Origin: Planctomycetota bacterium
GTDB lineage: Bacteria; Planctomycetota; UBA8108; SXIK01
Direction: 5' to 3'
Length of the DNA stretch: 64,000 nucleotides
Assembly (NCBI GenBank): GCA_965223265.1
Contig: OZ244999.1
Span: 2,272,001-2,336,000, forward strand
Shown here: in pieces, positions 3,485 to 8,772 of the stretch
How the letters are laid out: each line of letters starts with the position of its first letter
How positions within the stretch are numbered: the stretch's first letter is position 1
Program-made: the position numbers and the translations under genes
Notes under the pieces: model-generated
Databases searched by the model: none
What the model saw: only the letters and a program-made list of their open reading frames with translations
Told to the model about the DNA's origin: nothing

Positions 3485-3838
3485 ATGTGGCGACCCGTTC
3501 GCTGGAGACTTAAGGCGTCGCTGCACGCAGTGATCCTTGGCGGCTGCCTGGCTGCGTGCGCGTGCTCTCAGTCCGCGACGCAAGCCGATTTTTCGGTTGG
3601 CATGTCGCGTCAGAATTTGCGTGGGCGGTTCGGTCAGCCGATACACGTGCAGGCGCTGACGAAGACGGACACGCACCTCTTTGGCGCCGTCGAGGATTTG
3701 TGGTCCCGCTTGCAGACCGGTGAGCGCGTCGAGATTTGGCAATACCGCGTCGAGGGTGGTGTCGTCGAACTGTACTTCGTCAACGGCAGCGACTCCGTCT
3801 CGGAACTGGCGTTCGTTGCCGAAGGCACCGTCTTTTGA
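3485..3838 (+). CDS. Small putative lipoprotein
   Basis: GGAGG SD; hydrophobic N-terminus with lipobox-like 'LAACAC'; SmpA/BamE-like 'GMSRQNLRGRFGQP...IWQY' pattern. Confidence 0.6.
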   Translation: MWRPVRWRLKASLHAVILGGCLAACACSQSATQADFSVGMSRQNLRGRFGQPIHVQALTKTDTHLFGAVEDLWSRLQTGERVEIWQYRVEGGVVELYFVNGSDSVSELAFVAEGTVF

Positions 3839-3955: not shown

Positions 3956-3961
3956 TAGAAT
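3956..3961 (+). promoter_or_regulatory. Putative -10 element (TAGAAT) of a leaderless transcript
   Basis: TAGAAT followed 7 nt later by ATG (3969), directly upstream of intron copy 1. Confidence 0.45.
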
Positions 3962-4534
3962 GGCCTGCATGGTGTGTCCTGACGAAACGGGCGATCCCGT
4001 TTCTCGCTGTGTCAAGCTTGCGGGTGAAAGTCCCGCCGCGGTAGGAGCCGGTGCGCCGCGTAGCAGGTACCGGGCGTGGGGAGAGATCCCTCCGTCTGAG
4101 CGGTATGTCAAAGCCCTCAGGGAGTCGTACGACTCCTGCGGAGGGGAGCAAAGCCGCGGGCCCGATGCGTAAGCGTGAACCCTGCAGCCTCGTGAGATAG
4201 ACAATCGAAAGGTGGAGTGGCCGAGTGTCACGACGAAGGCAACAGACTGTACCTGGGCAATCCATGTGGGTCGTAGTAGCCGCGTGCGGCGAGGCGGCCG
4301 TGATGGACACAACCGGAGGGGTACAGGACGCTCCCGGGGTATTGGGGAGGGCACGTGGTTACGGTTTGACACGGAACAGGAGAGGCCCTACCCGGCTGCC
4401 GACGTCGGGCGAAGGCGGCGCCTATAAGCCGATGGCGAAATGGCGTCGTGCGGGGAGGGAATCCGAGGGGTTCATAGTACCGCCGAGGCTGCGTAACAGC
4501 GGGGGAGGGAAGGGGCCCTGCTTTAGTCACGCCT

Positions 4535-5942
4535 CATAGATTGGGAGGTTAGCCGTAACCGATTATGGGATCGATGTCTACGGTCTCGAAGGCGTTCTTC
4601 GTTTGCGGATTCGTTCGTCCGGCTGTCGATCGCAAGAGGAGAAGAACGCGTTTGAGCATCGCGACAAGGGAGCGCGGCTTCGAGATGCAAGCTCGCCCGA
4701 CGTCCCTGAAGAATGTCCAGCTCAGGTCGGCGGCGATGAACGGTGCGGCATGCTTCCCTGTGTTTCGAAACGCTGAATAGAGTAGGAACCTTCGGACAAG
4801 CACGGCGAGCATGCTCGCCCAGACGAGTCCCTCGACGATGTGAGGATCCTTTGTCTGGAACTTCCGCAAGTTGGTGAACGACTTGCATTCTTTGAAAAAG
4901 AGCTCGATCTGCCAACGCAGTCTGTAGAGAGCCGCGACGATGCTCGGTGGAAACGCTCTAGGGCACAGCGTAGTCAACAGGTACACGTGGACGTCCTTGT
5001 GTCTCACATAGAAGATGACGAGCCGAAGGCAGTGGCCTTTCCCTTCGATAAGCAGATCGACGTTGCTCTTGGGAAGTTTCAGATCGCGAAGTTTCATCCC
5101 TTCCGTTGTGCGGTGCTTGAAGGGACCACGGTAGCACTTGCGGATCTTGGGATTGAACGCCTTGTGGCTCATGCGGCCGAGGAAATCCCCGCCCGCGGCT
5201 CTCACCCGAGCGGGATACTCGTAACTGGTGTACCCCTTGTCCCCCAGGATGAGTTTGCCGGCAACCTCTTCCGGCTCAGGAAGGAAGTCTCGCTCTGTTT
5301 CACTATCGGGCGCGACAGCCACCGCTACCGGTTGGCCGTCGTAGAGACTGTACGTGCAGTGCACTTCGATCGCTGCAGGGGAGATCTTCGTAAATCGTCC
5401 TGGGAAGTAATCGACGAGTGAATCATTTACCTCGAACGAGCTCCCGTCCTGCGCAACGATGTCTTCGAATCGCCGAAGATACCGTGATCTGCCGTGTCGA
5501 ATGGGATCGGACAACTCGCTCATGAACAAGGCCAGCGTCTTACGCATGAACTCCGGAAAGCCGGGAACTGAAAGGCGATCGTGGAACGGCTTGTAGGACA
5601 TCGACTCGCCCGTCAGATCGGTAAACAGTCTCAAGACTGCCGCGAGACTGTTTGTCGTTCCCGATCCCATCGCGGTCACGAACGTCCAGACCGCACGAAT
5701 AGGCGTGAACTTTCGCAGCCGCTCGAAGAAAACTGCTTCGGACGCGATCGTGTTGATGCTTTTTTCCGAGAGGACCCGTTTCAACGCAGACGCACACCGG
5801 ATAAAATCGTGGCTCATTGTTTGCCCTCCACTTCTTGTTTGGCGATGAGCTGTGGAGGGTTTTTTTACGCGAAAACCAGCGCCCCGTCGATGAATCGTCG
5901 TAAGTCATCGCCACGATGAGACTTACTAACATCCAATCTATG
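4535..5942 (-). mobile_element. IS4-family insertion sequence (1408 bp)
   Basis: Terminal IRs CATAGATTGGGAGGTTAG / CATAGATTGGATGTTAG; 10-bp TSD AGTCACGCCT (4525-4534 and 5943-5952). The empty site is visible in intron copy 2. Confidence 0.95.
4549..5817 (-). CDS. IS4-family DDE transposase
   Basis: 'AQDGSSF', 'LGDKGY' and the YREK signature 'LYRLRWQIELFFKECKS'. Confidence 0.95.
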   Translation of the reverse strand: MSHDFIRCASALKRVLSEKSINTIASEAVFFERLRKFTPIRAVWTFVTAMGSGTTNSLAAVLRLFTDLTGESMSYKPFHDRLSVPGFPEFMRKTLALFMSELSDPIRHGRSRYLRRFEDIVAQDGSSFEVNDSLVDYFPGRFTKISPAAIEVHCTYSLYDGQPVAVAVAPDSETERDFLPEPEEVAGKLILGDKGYTSYEYPARVRAAGGDFLGRMSHKAFNPKIRKCYRGPFKHRTTEGMKLRDLKLPKSNVDLLIEGKGHCLRLVIFYVRHKDVHVYLLTTLCPRAFPPSIVAALYRLRWQIELFFKECKSFTNLRKFQTKDPHIVEGLVWASMLAVLVRRFLLYSAFRNTGKHAAPFIAADLSWTFFRDVGRACISKPRSLVAMLKRVLLLLRSTAGRTNPQTKNAFETVDIDPIIGYG

Positions 5943-5976
5943 AGTCACGCCTGTGTGTGGAGGTAAGTACGAGGGC

Positions 5977-6066
5977 ATGACCTCCCACGAGCGCATCGTG
6001 AAAAAACTTGGCCTCCATCGTTTAGTCGGCACAATACGTTACCCGGGAGGTGTACACGCGCCATGA
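5977..6066 (+). pseudogene. Remnant of intron-encoded RT/maturase (29 codons) in domain IV, copy 1
   Basis: GGAGG SD, then MTSHERIVKKLGLHRLVGTIRYPGGVHAP*. Resembles an IEP start fused to an IEP C-terminus; ends just before domain V. Confidence 0.6.
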
Positions 6067-6175
6067 GAAGACTATCGGGGTAAGCCGTGTGCGGGAAATC
6101 CGCACGCACGGTTTGAAAGGGGGGCTCAGGAAACGGGTCCCGATTACTATGGGACACCGCGCCTGAGCCCTACCA

Positions 6176-6616
6176 ATGACAAAGAAGAAAGGGCGTCGTT
6201 TAGCTCTGGCACTTGGACTCGGGGCTGCGGTCATCGCTGCCGCAGTCGTCGCGTTCAACTGGCCACACGTGCGAGCCAAGTACATCCTTTGGAGCGAGTT
6301 CGAGCCCCTTGGAAAAAACTCGAAAGGCTACGACGAGTATCGACACCGACGCTCGGAGAGTGTTTTCATCTTGCTTCCGGGAGCCCTAGTAACGCCGCGA
6401 GAGGCGAAGTCCTTCATTGAACTACTTTTGGACTTAGGTGTTCCAGTCGAAGCGCCTTTGCAAGACGTAGAACTTCGACCATTTTTGATCGAAAAGGACA
6501 TTGTAGTGGCGCCTGAATACTACGTCGATGTTGATGATCTTTCGGATTTCCCAGAGGAACGTTCGAGCAGGCGCTCGCCAAGTTCGAGCTCTCCGCCCCG
6601 ACCGGGGCCGAATTAG
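6176..6616 (+). CDS. Membrane-anchored hypothetical protein, resembling a truncated N-terminal part of a SUMF1/FGE-sulfatase-domain protein
   Basis: N-terminal TM helix; 'GYDEYRHRRSESVFILLPG...VELRPFLIEK'. Start ATG is formed at the intron 3' junction; the spliced form reads ATG GTG ACA AAG. Confidence 0.55.
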   Translation: MTKKKGRRLALALGLGAAVIAAAVVAFNWPHVRAKYILWSEFEPLGKNSKGYDEYRHRRSESVFILLPGALVTPREAKSFIELLLDLGVPVEAPLQDVELRPFLIEKDIVVAPEYYVDVDDLSDFPEERSSRRSPSSSSPPRPGPN

Positions 6617-6787
6617 CTTACGCCCTGGAGTTTTCTCCAAACGAAGTTTCGAACGCATTCGGAATACCGGTCGATGGGATATTAAGACCGCTCCGCGGAG
6701 TCCGCCGCCTCTACCGGTAGACACCGTGCCAGAACGCCTCGATCACCCAAATCCTCTTGCCGTGAACAGCAGCATGGCGCACATCAT

Positions 6788-7571
6788 GTGTCCTGACGAA
6801 ACGGGCGATCCCGTTTCTCGCTGTGTCAAGCTTGCGGGTGAAAGTCCCGCCGCGGTAGGGGCCGGTGCACCGCGTAGCAGGTACCGGGCGTGGGGAGAGA
6901 TCCCTCCGTCTGAGCGGTATGTCAAAGCCCTCAGGGAGTCGTACGACTCCTGCGGAGGGGAGCAAAGCCGCGGGCCCGATGCGTAAGCGTGAACCCTGCA
7001 GCCTCGTGAGATAGACAATCGAAAGGTGGAGTGGCCGAGTGTCACGACGAAGGCAACAGACTGTACCTGGGCAATCCATGTGGGTCGTAGTAGCCGCGTG
7101 CGGCGAGGCGGCCGTGATGGACACAACCGGAGGGGTACAGGACGCTCCCGGGGTATCGGGGAGGGCACGTGGTTACGGTTTGACACGGAACAGGAGAGGC
7201 CCTACCCGGCTGCCGACGTCGGGCGAAGGCGGCGCCTATAAGCCGATGGCGAAATGGCGTCGTGCGGGGAGGGAATCCGAGGGGTTCATAGTACCGCCGA
7301 GGCTGCGTAACAGCGGGGGAGGGAAGGGGCCCTGCTTTAGTCACGCCTGTGTGTGGAGGTAAGTACGAGGGCATGACCTCCCACGAGCGCATCGTGAAAA
7401 AACTTGGCCTCCATCGTTTAGTCGGCACAATACGTTACCCGGGAGGTGTACACGAGTCATGAGAAGACTATCGGTAAGCCGTGTGCGGGAAATCCGCACG
7501 CACGGTTTGAAAGGGGGGCTCAGGAAACGGGTCCCGATTACTATGGGACACCGCGCCTGAGCCCTACCAAT
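6788..7571 (+). mobile_element. ORF-less group II intron, copy 2 (784 nt, intact)
   Basis: Nearly identical to copy 1 (a few substitutions and a 2-nt indel before DV). Domain V 7475-7509; ends ...CCCTACCAAT|G. Interrupts the ATG of the desulfurase gene (AT|G). Confidence 0.93.
7373..7462 (+). pseudogene. Remnant of intron-encoded RT/maturase (29 codons), copy 2
   Basis: MTSHERIVKKLGLHRLVGTIRYPGGVHES*, with GGAGG SD. Confidence 0.6.
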
Positions 7572-8772
7572 GGCGAAACGGAAGGACGATTCACCCCGCC
7601 GCATCTACTTGGATCACGCCGCGACGACACCGCTGCGTCCCGAGGTCGTGCGCGCGATGCAGCCTTTCGCTGCGCAGTGCTTTGGGAATCCAAGCTCGCT
7701 CCATCTGGAGGGACGGCAGGCGAAGGCGGCTCTCGAGGAGGCGCGCGCCGCGGTGGTTCACGCTTTGGGCGCGCATGAGTTCGATCTCGCGTTTGCATCG
7801 TGCGGCACCGAGGCGAATCATTCAGCCTTGATCGGCGCCGTCCTAGCAGCCAAAGGACGACTGGCGCGGCCACACGTGGTGACAACGGCGATCGAGCATG
7901 CCGCGGTGCTCGAGTTGCTTCCGCTCCTGGAGACGCTCGGCGCTGAGGTCACCCTCGTTCCATGCAGCGAGCAAGGCGTCGTTGAGGCGCGAGCGATCGA
8001 GGCCTTGGTGCGCCCGGAGACGAGCCTCGTCAGTGTGATGGCGGTCAACAACGAGACCGGAGTCATTCAAGACGTTTCAGCGATCGGCGCTGCGCTTCGG
8101 GCCCACGACTGCTTGGTCCACGTCGATGCGGTCCAGCACCTTGGCAAGCTGGAACTTGACCTGTCTACTTGGCCGGTGGATCTCGTCACTCTCTCCGCGC
8201 ACAAGATCTATGGACCGAAGGGCGGAGCGGCGCTCGTTGCGCGGCGCGGGATTCAGTGGGAACCGCTGCTCCGCGGCGGCGGGCAGGAGGGCGGCAAGCG
8301 TTCGGGCACGCCAAACGTTGCCGCGGCTGTCGGGTTTGCTCAGGCTGTAGAGCTCGCGCAGGCCGAGTGGGCATCGGAGGCGGAGCGCCAGAGGCAGCTT
8401 CGAGATCGGCTGGAAGCGGACATCCAGCGGCGCGTGCCGGAGGCGATCGTCAATGGCGGGCGTCAGCATCGGGTGGGCGGGCTTCTGAATGTGTCGTTTC
8501 CGTTCGTCGAAGGTGAGTCGCTCGTGCGCCGGCTCGATGCCCGCGGCGTTGCCGTGTCGACCGGAAGCGCCTGCAACATCGGAGCTCACAAGCCATCGCA
8601 TGTCCTTCGAGCGATGCAGAGATCGGCTGCGGAGGTTCGCGGATCGATCCGTTTTTCGCTTGGACGCGGGAGTACCGCTGACGATCTCGCGGCAGCGAGT
8701 CAGCTGCTCTTCGAGGAGCTTGAGGTGCTGCGCCGCATCGCACCGAGTGGCAGTGCGCTGCCGAGCACCTAA
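7570..8772 (+). CDS. iscS: Cysteine desulfurase (IscS/NifS family, class V PLP enzyme)
   Basis: 'IYLDHAATTP', 'GNPSSLH', 'HVDAVQ', PLP lysine 'SAHKIYGPKG', catalytic Cys 'STGSAC'. Confidence 0.93.
   Translation: MAKRKDDSPRRIYLDHAATTPLRPEVVRAMQPFAAQCFGNPSSLHLEGRQAKAALEEARAAVVHALGAHEFDLAFASCGTEANHSALIGAVLAAKGRLARPHVVTTAIEHAAVLELLPLLETLGAEVTLVPCSEQGVVEARAIEALVRPETSLVSVMAVNNETGVIQDVSAIGAALRAHDCLVHVDAVQHLGKLELDLSTWPVDLVTLSAHKIYGPKGGAALVARRGIQWEPLLRGGGQEGGKRSGTPNVAAAVGFAQAVELAQAEWASEAERQRQLRDRLEADIQRRVPEAIVNGGRQHRVGGLLNVSFPFVEGESLVRRLDARGVAVSTGSACNIGAHKPSHVLRAMQRSAAEVRGSIRFSLGRGSTADDLAAASQLLFEELEVLRRIAPSGSALPST

What the first reader, a model, noticed from the sequence alone, without database searches (positions are those of the whole stretch)
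3956..7572. Two ORF-less group II introns that both sit in a start codon and re-create an ATG at their 3' end
Seen: removing 6788-7571 gives CACATC-ATG-GCG-AAA, the desulfurase start codon split as AT|G. Removing 3974-6177 gives ATG-GTG-ACA-AAG, with GTG split as GT|G in frame with an ATG 3 nt upstream. Both introns end ...CTACCAAT|G, so the downstream ORF has an in-frame ATG whether or not splicing occurs. The two host genes are unrelated neighbours. Known: a specialised lineage of bacterial group II introns (Avi.groEL relatives) inserts at or near start/stop codons. Inference: this is a non-autonomous, start-codon-homing intron family, mobilised in trans, that never breaks a reading frame but separates the gene from its promoter. 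No SD precedes the junction ATG, so expression of the cysteine desulfurase could depend on splicing.
Basis: partly seen in the sequence, partly recalled or inferred. Interest (0 to 1): 0.85.

Follow-up and report, generated by a model that had tools for sequence, protein, structure and literature searches.

The report
Introns parked behind leaderless start codons
The two elements are decayed, protein-less copies of a widespread and apparently undescribed kind of self-splicing intron that sits right after the start codon of genes lacking a leader sequence, ends in its own ATG, and in intact relatives has its enzyme gene in frame with the host gene's start codon.

Summary
Both elements are real group II introns (Rfam D1-D4 and D5 hits) and 99% identical. 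Copy 1 carries a 1,408-bp IS. Both lack the reverse transcriptase and 7 nt of the exon-binding (EBS1) hairpin. They belong to a lineage found in 81 of 120 loci from a D5-pattern scan of one genome per species. Eighty of the 81 end ...CCNATG or ...CCNGTG directly in front of codon 2 of a host gene.

Of 36 recovered 5' junctions, 35 have ATG or GTG immediately before the intron. Also 35 of 36 have a TAnnnT -10-like hexamer 5-8 nt upstream, against 1.5% of control ATGs. This is the signature of leaderless genes.

Base pairing covers only the last 4 exon nt (NAUG) and the first nt of codon 2 (34 of 36 Watson-Crick). In 22 of 32 intact relatives the RT frame runs open from the host ATG through the ribozyme, and 770 database protein clusters match that extension.

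The RT has no endonuclease domain, and there is no large 5' insertion and no IBS2, so this is not the Avi.groEL clade.

By the lineage's rule copy 1 spans 3972-6178. Copy 2 has an aberrant 5' junction. Expression could not be tested.

The parts
3956..3961 (+). TAGAAT, a -10-like hexamer 7 nt upstream of the start codon in front of copy 1
   Evidence: sequence. The same geometry occurs in 35 of 36 lineage 5' junctions against 1.5% of control ATGs. The simple two-hexamer sigma-70 scan did not call it, as there is no -35 match.
3969..3971 (+). ATG start codon of host gene X. It is the last 3 nt of the 5' exon and lies within the 4-nt IBS1 CATG (3968-3971).
   Evidence: An intron-free paralogue has TAGAATGGCTGGCATG|TCA.
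3972..6178 (+). Intron copy 1 in the lineage register: GTGTGTCC...CCCTACCAATG, 2,207 nt, or 789 nt without the IS and one duplication copy
   Evidence: Rfam hits. Relatives start GTGYG directly after the start codon. The 3' exon start is fixed by EBS3-IBS3 covariation.
4220..4239 (+). Remnant of the EBS1 hairpin. Seven nt (CCGNTCA in relatives) are missing between 4225 and 4226. The same deletion is in copy 2.
   Evidence: comparison with G003, L070, L114, L085 and others. EBS1 is defined.
4342..4343 (+). EBS3 (T at 4342, pairs with A 6179). The neighbouring base 4343 is T here and C in copy 2 (7157).
4535..5942 (-). IS element inside intron domain IV: inverted repeats CATAGATTGG, 10-bp target duplication at 4525-4534 and 5943-5952, DDE_Tnp_1 transposase ORF at 4549-5817
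   Evidence: There are 4 full-length copies at 99.9-100% identity in the genome.
6080..6150 (+). Domain V and start of domain VI of copy 1
   Evidence: RF00029, 45.8 bits.
6176..6178 (+). Intron-terminal ATG of copy 1, in frame with gene X codon 2
6179..6720 (+). Body of host gene X, a membrane-anchored protein with no Pfam hit. Longer relatives carry a conserved C-terminal domain that I recall as formylglycine-generating-enzyme-like; I ran no family search on them. A frameshift lies near 6515-6550 and the stop is TAG at 6718-6720.
   Evidence: tblastn switches frame between 6514 and 6550.
6786..6788 (+). ATG at the aberrant 5' junction of copy 2. No TAnnnT lies 5-8 nt upstream.
6789..7572 (+). 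Intron copy 2, starting TGTCC. It lacks the first 3 nt (GTG) of copy 1.
7373..7462 (+). 29-codon remnant of the RT gene: the conserved internal start (EGM) fused to the C-terminus (GLHRLVGTIRYPGG)
   Evidence: compared with relatives.
7570..8772 (+). Class-V aminotransferase (cysteine desulfurase-like) gene. Its ATG at 7570-7572 is the last 3 nt of copy 2.
   Evidence: Pfam Aminotran_5, 4.5e-70, residues 12-373. Orthologues start at the equivalent position.

Best explanation
The window holds two recent (99% identical), RT-less, partly degenerate copies of a distinct lineage of bacterial group II introns.

Shown by sequence statistics for the lineage:
- The intron lies directly after the ATG or GTG start codon of a host gene. 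That start codon itself lies 6-7 nt downstream of a TAnnnT -10 hexamer, which is the published signature of a leaderless gene.
- The intron ends in AUG (rarely GUG), so the start codon is present on both sides.
- Exon recognition by base pairing is limited to a 4-nt IBS1 (NAUG, paired with a CAUG loop) plus IBS3, the first base of codon 2. There is no IBS2.
- The RT is endonuclease-less.
- In most intact members the RT frame is continuous and free of stops from the host start codon through ribozyme domains I-III.

Inferred:
- Transcription starts at the A of the host ATG.
- Ribosomes that load on this 5'-terminal AUG read through the ribozyme into the RT.
- Splicing then rebuilds the leaderless host mRNA.
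- The intron's own AUG keeps an in-frame start in front of the host ORF in unspliced RNA.

In this window, copy 1 (3972-6178) is a canonical insertion at leaderless gene X. It has since been hit by an IS, and gene X is now frameshifted. Copy 2 has a canonical 3' junction at the native start position of the desulfurase gene, which is leaderless in relatives. Its 5' junction is imprecise: 3 intron nt are missing and there is no -10 box. Both copies lack half of the EBS1 hairpin. Copy 2 was therefore most likely made from a copy-1-type RNA with an RT supplied in trans, possibly by incomplete reverse splicing.
For: - Intron identity.
- Copy comparison: 5 substitutions, a 2-nt indel and 3 nt at the 5' end.
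Of these, 81 have the ...YYRCC-N-(A/G)TG type of D6 end: 75 ATG, 5 GTG and 1 neither (L017).
- Downstream ORF: at least 100 aa in 59 of 71 decidable cases, against 35% for all ATGs in the same loci.
- True N-termini: 10 of 10 host proteins have Pfam domains starting at residues 6-28.
- 5' junctions (n=36): ATG 30, GTG 5, ATT 1. TAnnnT lies at spacing 5-8 in 35 of 36, against 79 of 5,106 control ATGs.
- EBS3-IBS3: 34 of 36 Watson-Crick plus 1 G.U. Shuffles gave a mean of 10.9 and a maximum of 19.
- EBS1: pairs at positions -4 to -1 in 32, 34, 34 and 32 of 34, with covariation at -4.
- IBS2: no column pairs with positions -5 to -16.
- RT frame: among 32 intact members, the RT is in the host-ATG frame in 25, and that frame is open from the ATG to the RT in 22. 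Stops over that stretch total 17, 164 and 180 in frames 0, 1 and 2.
- Database support: 770 protein clusters match the 200-aa extension, and 4 of the 6 that I read begin MVRRD or MVRPE.
- RT domains: RVT_1+GIIM only.
- Desulfurase orthologues: 6 of 7 have TAnnnT 6-8 nt before their ATG.
- Published basis: TANNNT about 12 bp upstream of the start marks leaderless genes (PMC3160421, passages).
- Within-genome spread: 7 sets of identical D5-D6 tails sit at different genes.
Against: - No transcript data. The transcription start, splicing and translation of the long frame are therefore all inferred.
- The simple sigma-70 scan, which requires a -35 as well, calls no promoter at either junction.
- A conserved internal GGAGG...AUG (the EGM motif) lies just before the RT domain. 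The RT may therefore be made conventionally, and the open upstream frame may serve another purpose.
- Copy 2 breaks two lineage rules: no -10 box and a truncated 5' end.
- The subgroup closest to the window's introns (L070, L114, L085) has stops in frame 0.
- Exceptions exist. L017 ends CCAGGA. G025 ends CCAAAG. L122 has no -10 box. One database protein shows an insertion after an internal Met of a glycoside hydrolase (P0002).
- My sample is defined by one D5 sequence, and Michel et al. 2007 could not be read.
Confidence: 0.75

Rival explanations
1. One reading: the introns belong to the specialised Avi.groEL (IIB1) lineage that inserts in start or stop codons, split the codons as AT|G and GT|G, and desulfurase expression depends on splicing.
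For: Association with start codons is real. That clade is described as inserting within or next to initiation or termination codons (PMC12584367, Introduction). Variants whose first intron base is T (TCGCG in G003, L009, L043, L065, L085 and L110; TTGCG in L114) would have a canonical G1 only if the splice site lay inside the codon (xT|G). For copy 2, AT|GTGTC...AAT|G gives canonical GU...AY ends.
Against: The defining features of that clade were tested and not met. The RT has no endonuclease domain. The best solved-structure matches are class IIC-type RTs. The 5' end lies only 44-95 nt from the D1 core, so there is no 300-700-nt insertion. No IBS2 was found. The hosts span many phyla. blastn found no similarity to any E. 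coli genome. EBS3 covaries with the base after ...AATG, not with its G. Copy 1 begins with a canonical GTGTG directly after the ATG.
Confidence: 0.07
2. The TAnnnT hexamers are not host promoters but part of the DNA target read by the intron RNP, so the host genes need not be leaderless.
For: The hexamer sits in the region where other group II introns read IBS2 or where the RT contacts the distal 5' exon. TAGAAT recurs often. No -35 element is evident at copy 1.
Against: No intron column covaries with, or is complementary to, positions -5 to -16. Spacing varies from 5 to 8 nt, as it does for transcription start selection. Intron-free genes show the same geometry: 6 of 7 desulfurase orthologues and the gene X paralogue. 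The genome as a whole shows a TAnnnT peak at spacing 6 (63 against about 20 background). The position matches the published leaderless signature (PMC3160421).
Confidence: 0.12
3. The arrangement intron - gene X - intron - desulfurase arose by DNA recombination or duplication between intron copies rather than by retromobility. The odd 5' junction of copy 2 is then an illegitimate recombination joint.
For: In G003 and G007 the gene upstream of the desulfurase is the homologue of window ORF 3485-3838, which here precedes copy 1 (read by eye from the upstream sequences printed, not tested by a search). By synteny the promoter in front of copy 1 could therefore be the desulfurase's own. Copy 2's 5' flank has no promoter, and 3 intron nt are missing. 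The copies lie only 610 bp apart in the same orientation.
Against: Both 3' junctions are exact lineage-type junctions at codon 2 of two different genes. EBS3 (U) can pair with both first bases: A by Watson-Crick and G by wobble. The 5' flank of copy 1 closely resembles the promoter of the intron-free gene X paralogue. Imprecise 5' junctions with precise 3' junctions are what retrohoming of linear intron RNA is reported to give (PMC3280974; I saw only the start of its abstract, and the rest is recalled).
Confidence: 0.3
4. The stop-free frame from the host ATG through domains I-III is not used to make the RT. It is either a by-product of G+C-rich conserved RNA, or it is kept so that ribosomes loaded at the 5' AUG keep translating, which would protect the nascent intron from transcription termination or decay. 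The RT itself would start at the internal EGM codon.
For: A conserved GGAGG...AUG lies 15-20 codons before the RT0 motif. G+C is 61-72%. Some members have the RT in another frame while frame 0 stays open (L060, L084, L100).
Against: Frames 1 and 2 of the same stretch carry 164 and 180 stops against 17 in frame 0. All length differences among the 25 in-frame members are multiples of 3. In 770 protein clusters the predicted protein includes this extension.
Confidence: 0.3

Closest known systems
Avi.groEL / EcKTE56.groEL clade of IIB1 introns (Michel et al. 2007, as described in Gomes et al. 2025, PMC12584367)
   Same: Bacterial group II introns tied to initiation or termination codons of host genes. 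The codon is preserved after insertion (there UAA becomes UAG; here ATG is present on both sides). A variable element lies in the 5' strand at the base of domain I.
   Different: That clade has a CL1 RT with an endonuclease domain, canonical EBS2 and EBS2a, a 300-700-nt subdomain Ia, and proteobacterial hosts. Here the RT is endonuclease-less, there is no IBS2, the variable hairpin is only about 20-60 nt, at least ten phyla are represented, a leaderless promoter context is seen, and the RT frame is fused to the host ATG. The original 2007 paper was not readable.
Group IIC introns (terminator- and attC-targeting)
   Same: Very short exon pairing (IBS1 of a few nt plus IBS3, no EBS2), an endonuclease-less RT, and a target defined mainly by a structural or functional DNA feature rather than by sequence (PMC12584367 Introduction; PMC3753933 passages). 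The best solved-structure matches of this lineage's RT are IIC RTs (7uim 3.8e-63, 6ar1 1.2e-57).
   Different: IIC introns insert after terminator hairpins or attC sites, outside genes. Here the site is the promoter-proximal start codon. The D1-D4 region matches RF02003, and the intron is full-sized with a long D6.
Mitochondrial group II introns whose ORF is fused in frame to the upstream exon (phase-0 insertions)
   Same: The intron ORF is continuous with the upstream exon through domains I-III, so the protein is initiated at the host gene's start (PMC8393795 passage; the yeast aI1/aI2 example is recalled, not looked up).
   Different: Those are organellar introns placed deep inside genes. 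Here the upstream exon is nothing but the start codon, in bacteria. My searches found no bacterial case described.
ORF-less bacterial group II introns served in trans by a related RT (Trichodesmium dnaN/RIR, Thermosynechococcus)
   Same: RT-less derivatives that retain the ribozyme and sit in host genes (PMC12584367 Introduction; PMC2882425, listing only).
   Different: In those systems a closely related RT-encoding intron is present in the same genome. Here the only RTs belong to another family: 41% identity, and no DNA similarity.

Membership tests
Group II intron (ribozyme) | Domain V with catalytic AGC and a conserved D1-D4 core | tested here: met
   RF00029 at 45.8 bits (cut-off 40) and RF02003 at 75.4 and 73.7 bits (cut-off 49) in both copies.
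Group II intron (ribozyme) | 5' GUGYG and a D6 with a bulged A 7-8 nt from the 3' end | tested here: inconclusive
   Copy 1 starts GTGTG at 3972, and the bulged A in CCCU[A]CCAAUG is 7 nt from the end. Copy 2 lacks the first 3 nt. The 3' end is UG rather than AY if EBS3 covariation is followed.
Group II intron (mobile retroelement) | Intron-encoded RT/maturase in domain IV | tested here: not met
   Only a 29-codon remnant is left. Intact relatives encode RVT_1+GIIM.
Avi.groEL-type specialised IIB1 clade | Insertion in or next to an initiation or termination codon | tested here: met
Avi.groEL-type specialised IIB1 clade | 5'-subterminal insertion of 300-700 nt (subdomain Ia) | tested here: not met
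   The RF02003 match starts 44 nt from the 5' end. In relatives the distance is about 75-95 nt. ORF-less members are 818-983 nt in all.
Avi.groEL-type specialised IIB1 clade | CL1-lineage RT with a C-terminal endonuclease domain | tested here: not met
   4 of 4 RTs tested have RVT_1+GIIM only. The top PDB matches are IIC-type RTs. No formal RT phylogeny was made.
Avi.groEL-type specialised IIB1 clade | Canonical EBS2-IBS2 pairing | tested here: not met
   No alignment column is complementary to exon positions -5 to -16 across 35 members.
Group IIC introns | Insertion downstream of a terminator hairpin or attC site | tested here: not met
   The 5' flanks are -10 hexamer plus start codon. No terminator-like site lies in front of either copy.
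The lineage described here (start codon | GUGYG...CUACCAAUG | codon 2) | 3' end ...CCNAUG abutting codon 2, with EBS3 complementary to the next base | tested here: met
   Copy 1 gives U:A and copy 2 gives U.G wobble. Both end CCCTACCAATG.
The lineage described here | Start codon and a TAnnnT hexamer 5-8 nt upstream at the 5' junction | tested here: inconclusive
   Copy 1 meets it (TAGAAT-N7-ATG|GTGTG). Copy 2 has an ATG but no hexamer and a truncated intron end.
The lineage described here | EBS1 hairpin CCG-N-U-CAUG-UC-R-CGG | tested here: not met
   Seven nt of it are deleted in both copies. It is intact in 34 relatives.

The most novel reading that the evidence does not exclude
A whole lineage of endonuclease-less group II introns has specialised on the first three transcribed bases of leaderless genes. 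With only about 5 nt of base pairing, it would find these sites through a promoter-linked DNA state, for example the single-stranded non-template strand of the open transcription complex. It would also borrow the host's promoter and 5'-terminal AUG to translate its own reverse transcriptase through the ribozyme. Intron expression, host-gene expression and splicing would then be coupled at one codon. This would be a fourth target specificity for bacterial group II introns and the first bacterial case of an exon-fused intron ORF.
Probability: 0.35. Interest if true: 0.9.

Novelty: new variant of a known kind. Interest (0 to 1): 0.85.

Why it matters
Reviews list three target specificities for bacterial group II introns: homing sites, terminators and attC (PMC4424553 passage). 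How the one known start/stop-codon clade finds its sites is stated to be unknown (PMC12584367).

The data here point to a separate, phylum-spanning lineage whose sites share a functional signature (-10 box, about 6-7 nt, start codon) rather than a sequence. This gives a directly testable model of how a retroelement can live inside essential genes such as tsaD, nadD, dnaX and scpA without destroying them.

The lineage also offers bacterial counterparts of two organellar or eukaryote-like traits: an intron ORF fused to the upstream exon, and host-gene expression that is obligatorily coupled to splicing.

It affects annotation as well. Hundreds of database reverse transcriptases of about 626 aa apparently begin at a host gene's start codon, and in genomes that carry the intron the host genes appear to lack their promoter.

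For this window itself the biology is more modest: two decaying copies, one pseudogenised host gene, and an intact desulfurase gene whose mode of expression is open.

Tried and rejected
1. First EBS assignment. I took the loops UCCAUG (about intron position 290) and GUGAUGG (about 327) as EBS2 and EBS1. I rejected this because the two segments pair with each other, with 5 compensatory changes between the window intron and G003. Lineage covariation places EBS1 elsewhere.

2. Target-site duplication of the start codon. Rejected, because the two triplets differ in L019, L026, L043 and L065 (GTG at the 5' side, ATG at the 3' side) and in L008 and L122 (ATG at the 5' side, GTG at the 3' side).

3. 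A compensatory EBS3 change between the copies. I first read the T/C difference (4343 versus 7157) as EBS3 itself. The alignment shows it is the neighbouring base, and EBS3 is U in both copies. I have withdrawn that reading.

4. Reverse splicing into the 5' end of leaderless mRNA as the targeting route. This is weakened because exon position -4, which would not be in such an RNA, covaries with EBS1.

5. Similarity to E. coli introns. megablast with the whole L082 locus found nothing and was a wasted call. blastn with the 2,073-nt intron also found nothing.

6. My first RT0 regular expression failed and was replaced by tblastn. My D1 motif and 5'-end expressions missed many loci. 5' junctions were therefore recovered for only 36 of 83: 81 scan loci plus copy 1 and G003. 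Most of the rest lack upstream sequence on their contig.

7. Rows dropped or reassigned. L027, L076 and L096 matched my 3' expression by chance and belong to the other two lineages. L017 is a lineage member that ends CCAGGA and counts as the one exception. Three loci were too short. W1 and L112 carry insertions and were left out of the frame counts (32 of 34 used).

8. No RNA holder was listed for the window stretch.

9. Literature. Searches found no description of group II introns at leaderless starts or with an RT fused to a host start codon. Michel et al. 2007 is not held. Supplementary files, for example Figure S1 of PMC12584367, were not opened and may list initiation-codon members of the IIB1 clade.

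11. Steps not taken: no structure prediction, complex prediction, covariance model or metagenome scan was run.

Full report
WHAT IS IN THE WINDOW. Rfam finds a group II D1-D4 core (RF02003; 4018-4172 and 6832-6986; 75.4 and 73.7 bits) and a domain V (RF00029; 6080-6150 and 7474-7544; 45.8 bits) twice on the + strand. The two elements align from ...TGTGTCCTGACG to ...CCCTACCAATG. They are the only copies in the 9.18-Mb single-contig genome (blastn).

Copy 1 is interrupted in domain IV by a 1,408-bp IS. It spans 4535-5942, has a 10-bp duplication AGTCACGCCT, and encodes a 422-aa DDE_Tnp_1 transposase on the minus strand. The genome holds four copies of it at 99.9-100% identity. Without the IS, the copies differ by 5 substitutions, a 2-nt indel, and 3 nt at the extreme 5' end.

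Neither copy encodes an RT. A 29-codon remnant joins the conserved internal start (EGM) to the RT C-terminus (GLHRLVGTIRYPGG). The genome has five introns of another family, four of them with RT ORFs of 449-455 aa. They share no blastn similarity with the window introns, and their RT is 41% identical to that of the window introns' lineage.

THE LINEAGE. A relative in a same-family genome (G003; 75% identity; ORF-less) again ends CTACCAATG. I then scanned one genome per species for the domain V sequence.
- Eighty-one loci have the same D6 end: 75 end in ATG, 5 end in GTG, and one (L017) ends CCAGGA.
- Eighteen and 16 loci belong to two other lineages, ending CCYCTAT or CTCTAC. Two are of another type and three are too short.
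- Of the 31 loci my script sorted into the two other lineages, 29 have no ATG or GTG at the junction, which serves as a built-in control.

The ORF opened by the junction codon is at least 100 aa in 59 of 71 decidable cases, against 35% for all ATGs of the same loci. These are true N-termini: in 10 of 10 host proteins tested (TsaD, NadD-type, ScpA, ABC ATPases, SDR, MoaC, PIG-L, ADH, ECH) the Pfam domain starts at residues 6-28. Seven sets of identical D5-D6 tails occur at different genes, which shows spread within genomes.

THE 5' SIDE. I recovered 36 5' junctions, including copy 1 and G003. Directly before GTGYG (or TCGCG or TTGCG) stands ATG in 30, GTG in 5 and ATT in 1. In 35 of the 36 a TAnnnT hexamer lies 5-8 nt (mostly 6-7) upstream of that codon, against 79 of 5,106 (1.5%) of all ATGs in the same loci.

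TANNNT about 12 bp upstream of the start codon is the published signature of leaderless genes (PMC3160421, passages). Intron-free genes show the same geometry: 6 of 7 desulfurase orthologues in relatives and the intron-free paralogue of gene X (TAGAATGGCTGGCATG|TCA). The genome as a whole shows a TAnnnT peak at spacing 6 (63 against about 20). I therefore read the hexamers as host promoters of leaderless genes. This is an inference, since no transcript ends were seen. The two-hexamer sigma-70 scan does not call these sites.

HOW THE EXONS ARE READ. Across 35 aligned members, the first base after ...AATG covaries with one intron position. It is Watson-Crick in 34 of 36 and G.U in one more, while shuffles give a mean of 10.9 and a maximum of 19. 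That position is EBS3, so the 3' exon begins at codon 2 and the intron ends in AUG.

A hairpin loop carrying CAUG pairs with the last four exon bases. Pairs form in 32, 34, 34 and 32 of 34 members, and position -4 covaries as C:G, G:C (four times) and U:A. No column pairs with positions -5 to -16, so there is no IBS2. Five base pairs cannot by themselves explain why 35 of 36 sites are promoter-proximal. Either something else guides insertion, or other insertions are lost. One insertion after an internal Met of a glycoside hydrolase does exist (P0002).

THE RT FRAME. I examined 34 full-length members and dropped W1 and L112 because they carry insertions, leaving 32.
- The RT is in the frame of the host start codon in 25.
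- That frame has no stop from the ATG to the RT (about 500-590 nt of domains I-III) in 22.
- Stops over the stretch total 17, 164 and 180 in frames 0, 1 and 2.

Searching the 200-residue extension against 5.8 billion proteins gave 770 clusters at E of 1e-5 or better. Eighty-two of the 120 listed cover all 200 residues, most are about 626 aa with RVT_1+GIIM, and 4 of the 6 that I read begin MVRRD or MVRPE. The RT has no endonuclease domain, and its best solved-structure matches are IIC-type RTs.

A conserved GGAGG...AUG just before the RT means a conventional start is also possible. The open frame is shown. Its use is inferred.

BACK TO THE WINDOW. Copy 1 fits the rule exactly: TAGAAT (3956-3961), 7 nt, ATG (3969-3971) | GTGTGTCC...CCCTACCAATG (3972-6178) | ACA AAG.

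Host gene X (6179-6720) has a frameshift near 6515-6550 relative to its paralogue.

Copy 2 ends at the native start position of the desulfurase. MAKRKDDSPRRIYLD compares with MPAAGTSPRRIYLD in G003. Upstream it reads CACATC ATG|TGTCC, so the first 3 intron nt are missing, or alternatively GG has become CA. No -10 hexamer is present.

Both copies lack 7 nt of the EBS1 hairpin. EBS3 is U in both, pairing with A in copy 1 and wobbling with G in copy 2. Such a wobble is reported to support integration in the groEL intron (PMC12584367 passage).

The simplest history is as follows.
1. A lineage member inserted at gene X.
2. It lost its RT and part of EBS1.
3. Its RNA was copied once more into the leaderless desulfurase start with an RT supplied in trans. 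This gave a precise 3' junction and an imprecise 5' junction.
4. An IS then landed in copy 1.

A DNA-recombination origin is not excluded. The gene that precedes copy 1 here appears, by eye, to be the homologue of the desulfurase's upstream neighbour in G003 and G007. Whether either copy still splices, and how the intact desulfurase ORF is expressed, could not be tested.

COMPARISON WITH WHAT IS KNOWN. The known start/stop-codon clade (Avi.groEL, EcKTE56.groEL) is IIB1 with EBS2, a CL1 RT with an endonuclease domain, a 300-700-nt subdomain Ia and proteobacterial hosts. How it colonises codons is stated to be unknown (PMC12584367, Introduction, Discussion and passages). Three of those defining features were tested here and not met.

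In its short pairing and endonuclease-less RT the lineage works more like IIC introns. In its exon-fused ORF it resembles mitochondrial introns (PMC8393795 passage). A major review lists only three bacterial target specificities (PMC4424553 passage). Nine full-text searches found nothing on introns at leaderless starts. Michel et al. 2007 and all supplements were not readable, so prior description cannot be excluded.

VERDICT. The finding leads to a widespread, apparently undescribed intron lineage with a new target type. The window's own copies are degenerate.

Noticed in passing
G000 contig C1: 1894791-1898657, 3515690-3517582, 4285371-4285647, 5912997-5914889, 3423946-3425833 (outside the window): There is a second group II intron family of 5 copies: four with RT ORFs of 449-455 aa, one carrying about 2 kb of extra sequence, and one reduced to about 280 nt. 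The shared sequence begins at ...CTCGAGTTTGGCG without an obvious GUGYG. It has a long insertion in D6 and ends CTCGACTCTAC(C). The 3' flanks are themselves similar over 100-270 nt at 86-95% identity, as if the target were the edge of a repeated element.
   Followed up: partly
window 4535-5942: The IS (DDE_Tnp_1 transposase, 10-bp target duplication) is present in 4 copies at 99.9-100% identity, so it has been active recently. One copy landed in intron domain IV in antisense orientation.
   Followed up: partly
window 7544-7551 (and 6150-6157 in copy 1): The D6 loop of the window introns has 6 extra nt relative to G003. These create TACTAT, a TAnnnT hexamer about 25 nt upstream of the junction ATG. 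It could act as an outward-facing promoter for the host gene. This was not tested.
   Followed up: no
window 6176-6720 and G000:C1:2716673-2717014: Gene X belongs to a large paralogous family, with up to 22 hits in one relative genome. The members have an N-terminal membrane anchor. The longer relatives carry a conserved C-terminal domain that I recall as formylglycine-generating-enzyme-like, but I ran no family search on them. The window copy and its closest paralogue are short forms lacking that domain. In G001 a family member lies next to a desulfurase paralogue.
   Followed up: partly
L003 (G025:C46), minus strand about 1501-2425: A 3' fragment of a lineage-type intron ends CCTACCAAAG (ATG lost). 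It is preceded within about 780 nt by the D5-D6 of an intron of the CTCTAC type. This is either a nested or a tandem intron arrangement.
   Followed up: no
L009, L043, L065, L085, L110, L114 and L002 (G003): In seven lineage members the first intron base is T (TCGCG or TTGCG) instead of G. L043 and L065 are two copies at different genes of one genome, so these variants appear mobile. They may use the G of the start codon as intron base 1.
   Followed up: partly
P0002; L112: P0002 shows an insertion of this lineage after an internal Met codon of a glycoside-hydrolase family 2 gene, in frame. L112 carries an extra insertion of about 1.1 kb with a 264-aa membrane-protein-like ORF inside the intron.
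   Followed up: no
L032, L056, L103, L106, L118: Several contigs begin only 2-6 nt upstream of the intron's 5' end, as if assemblies break at this junction. This is consistent with multi-copy introns.
   Followed up: no
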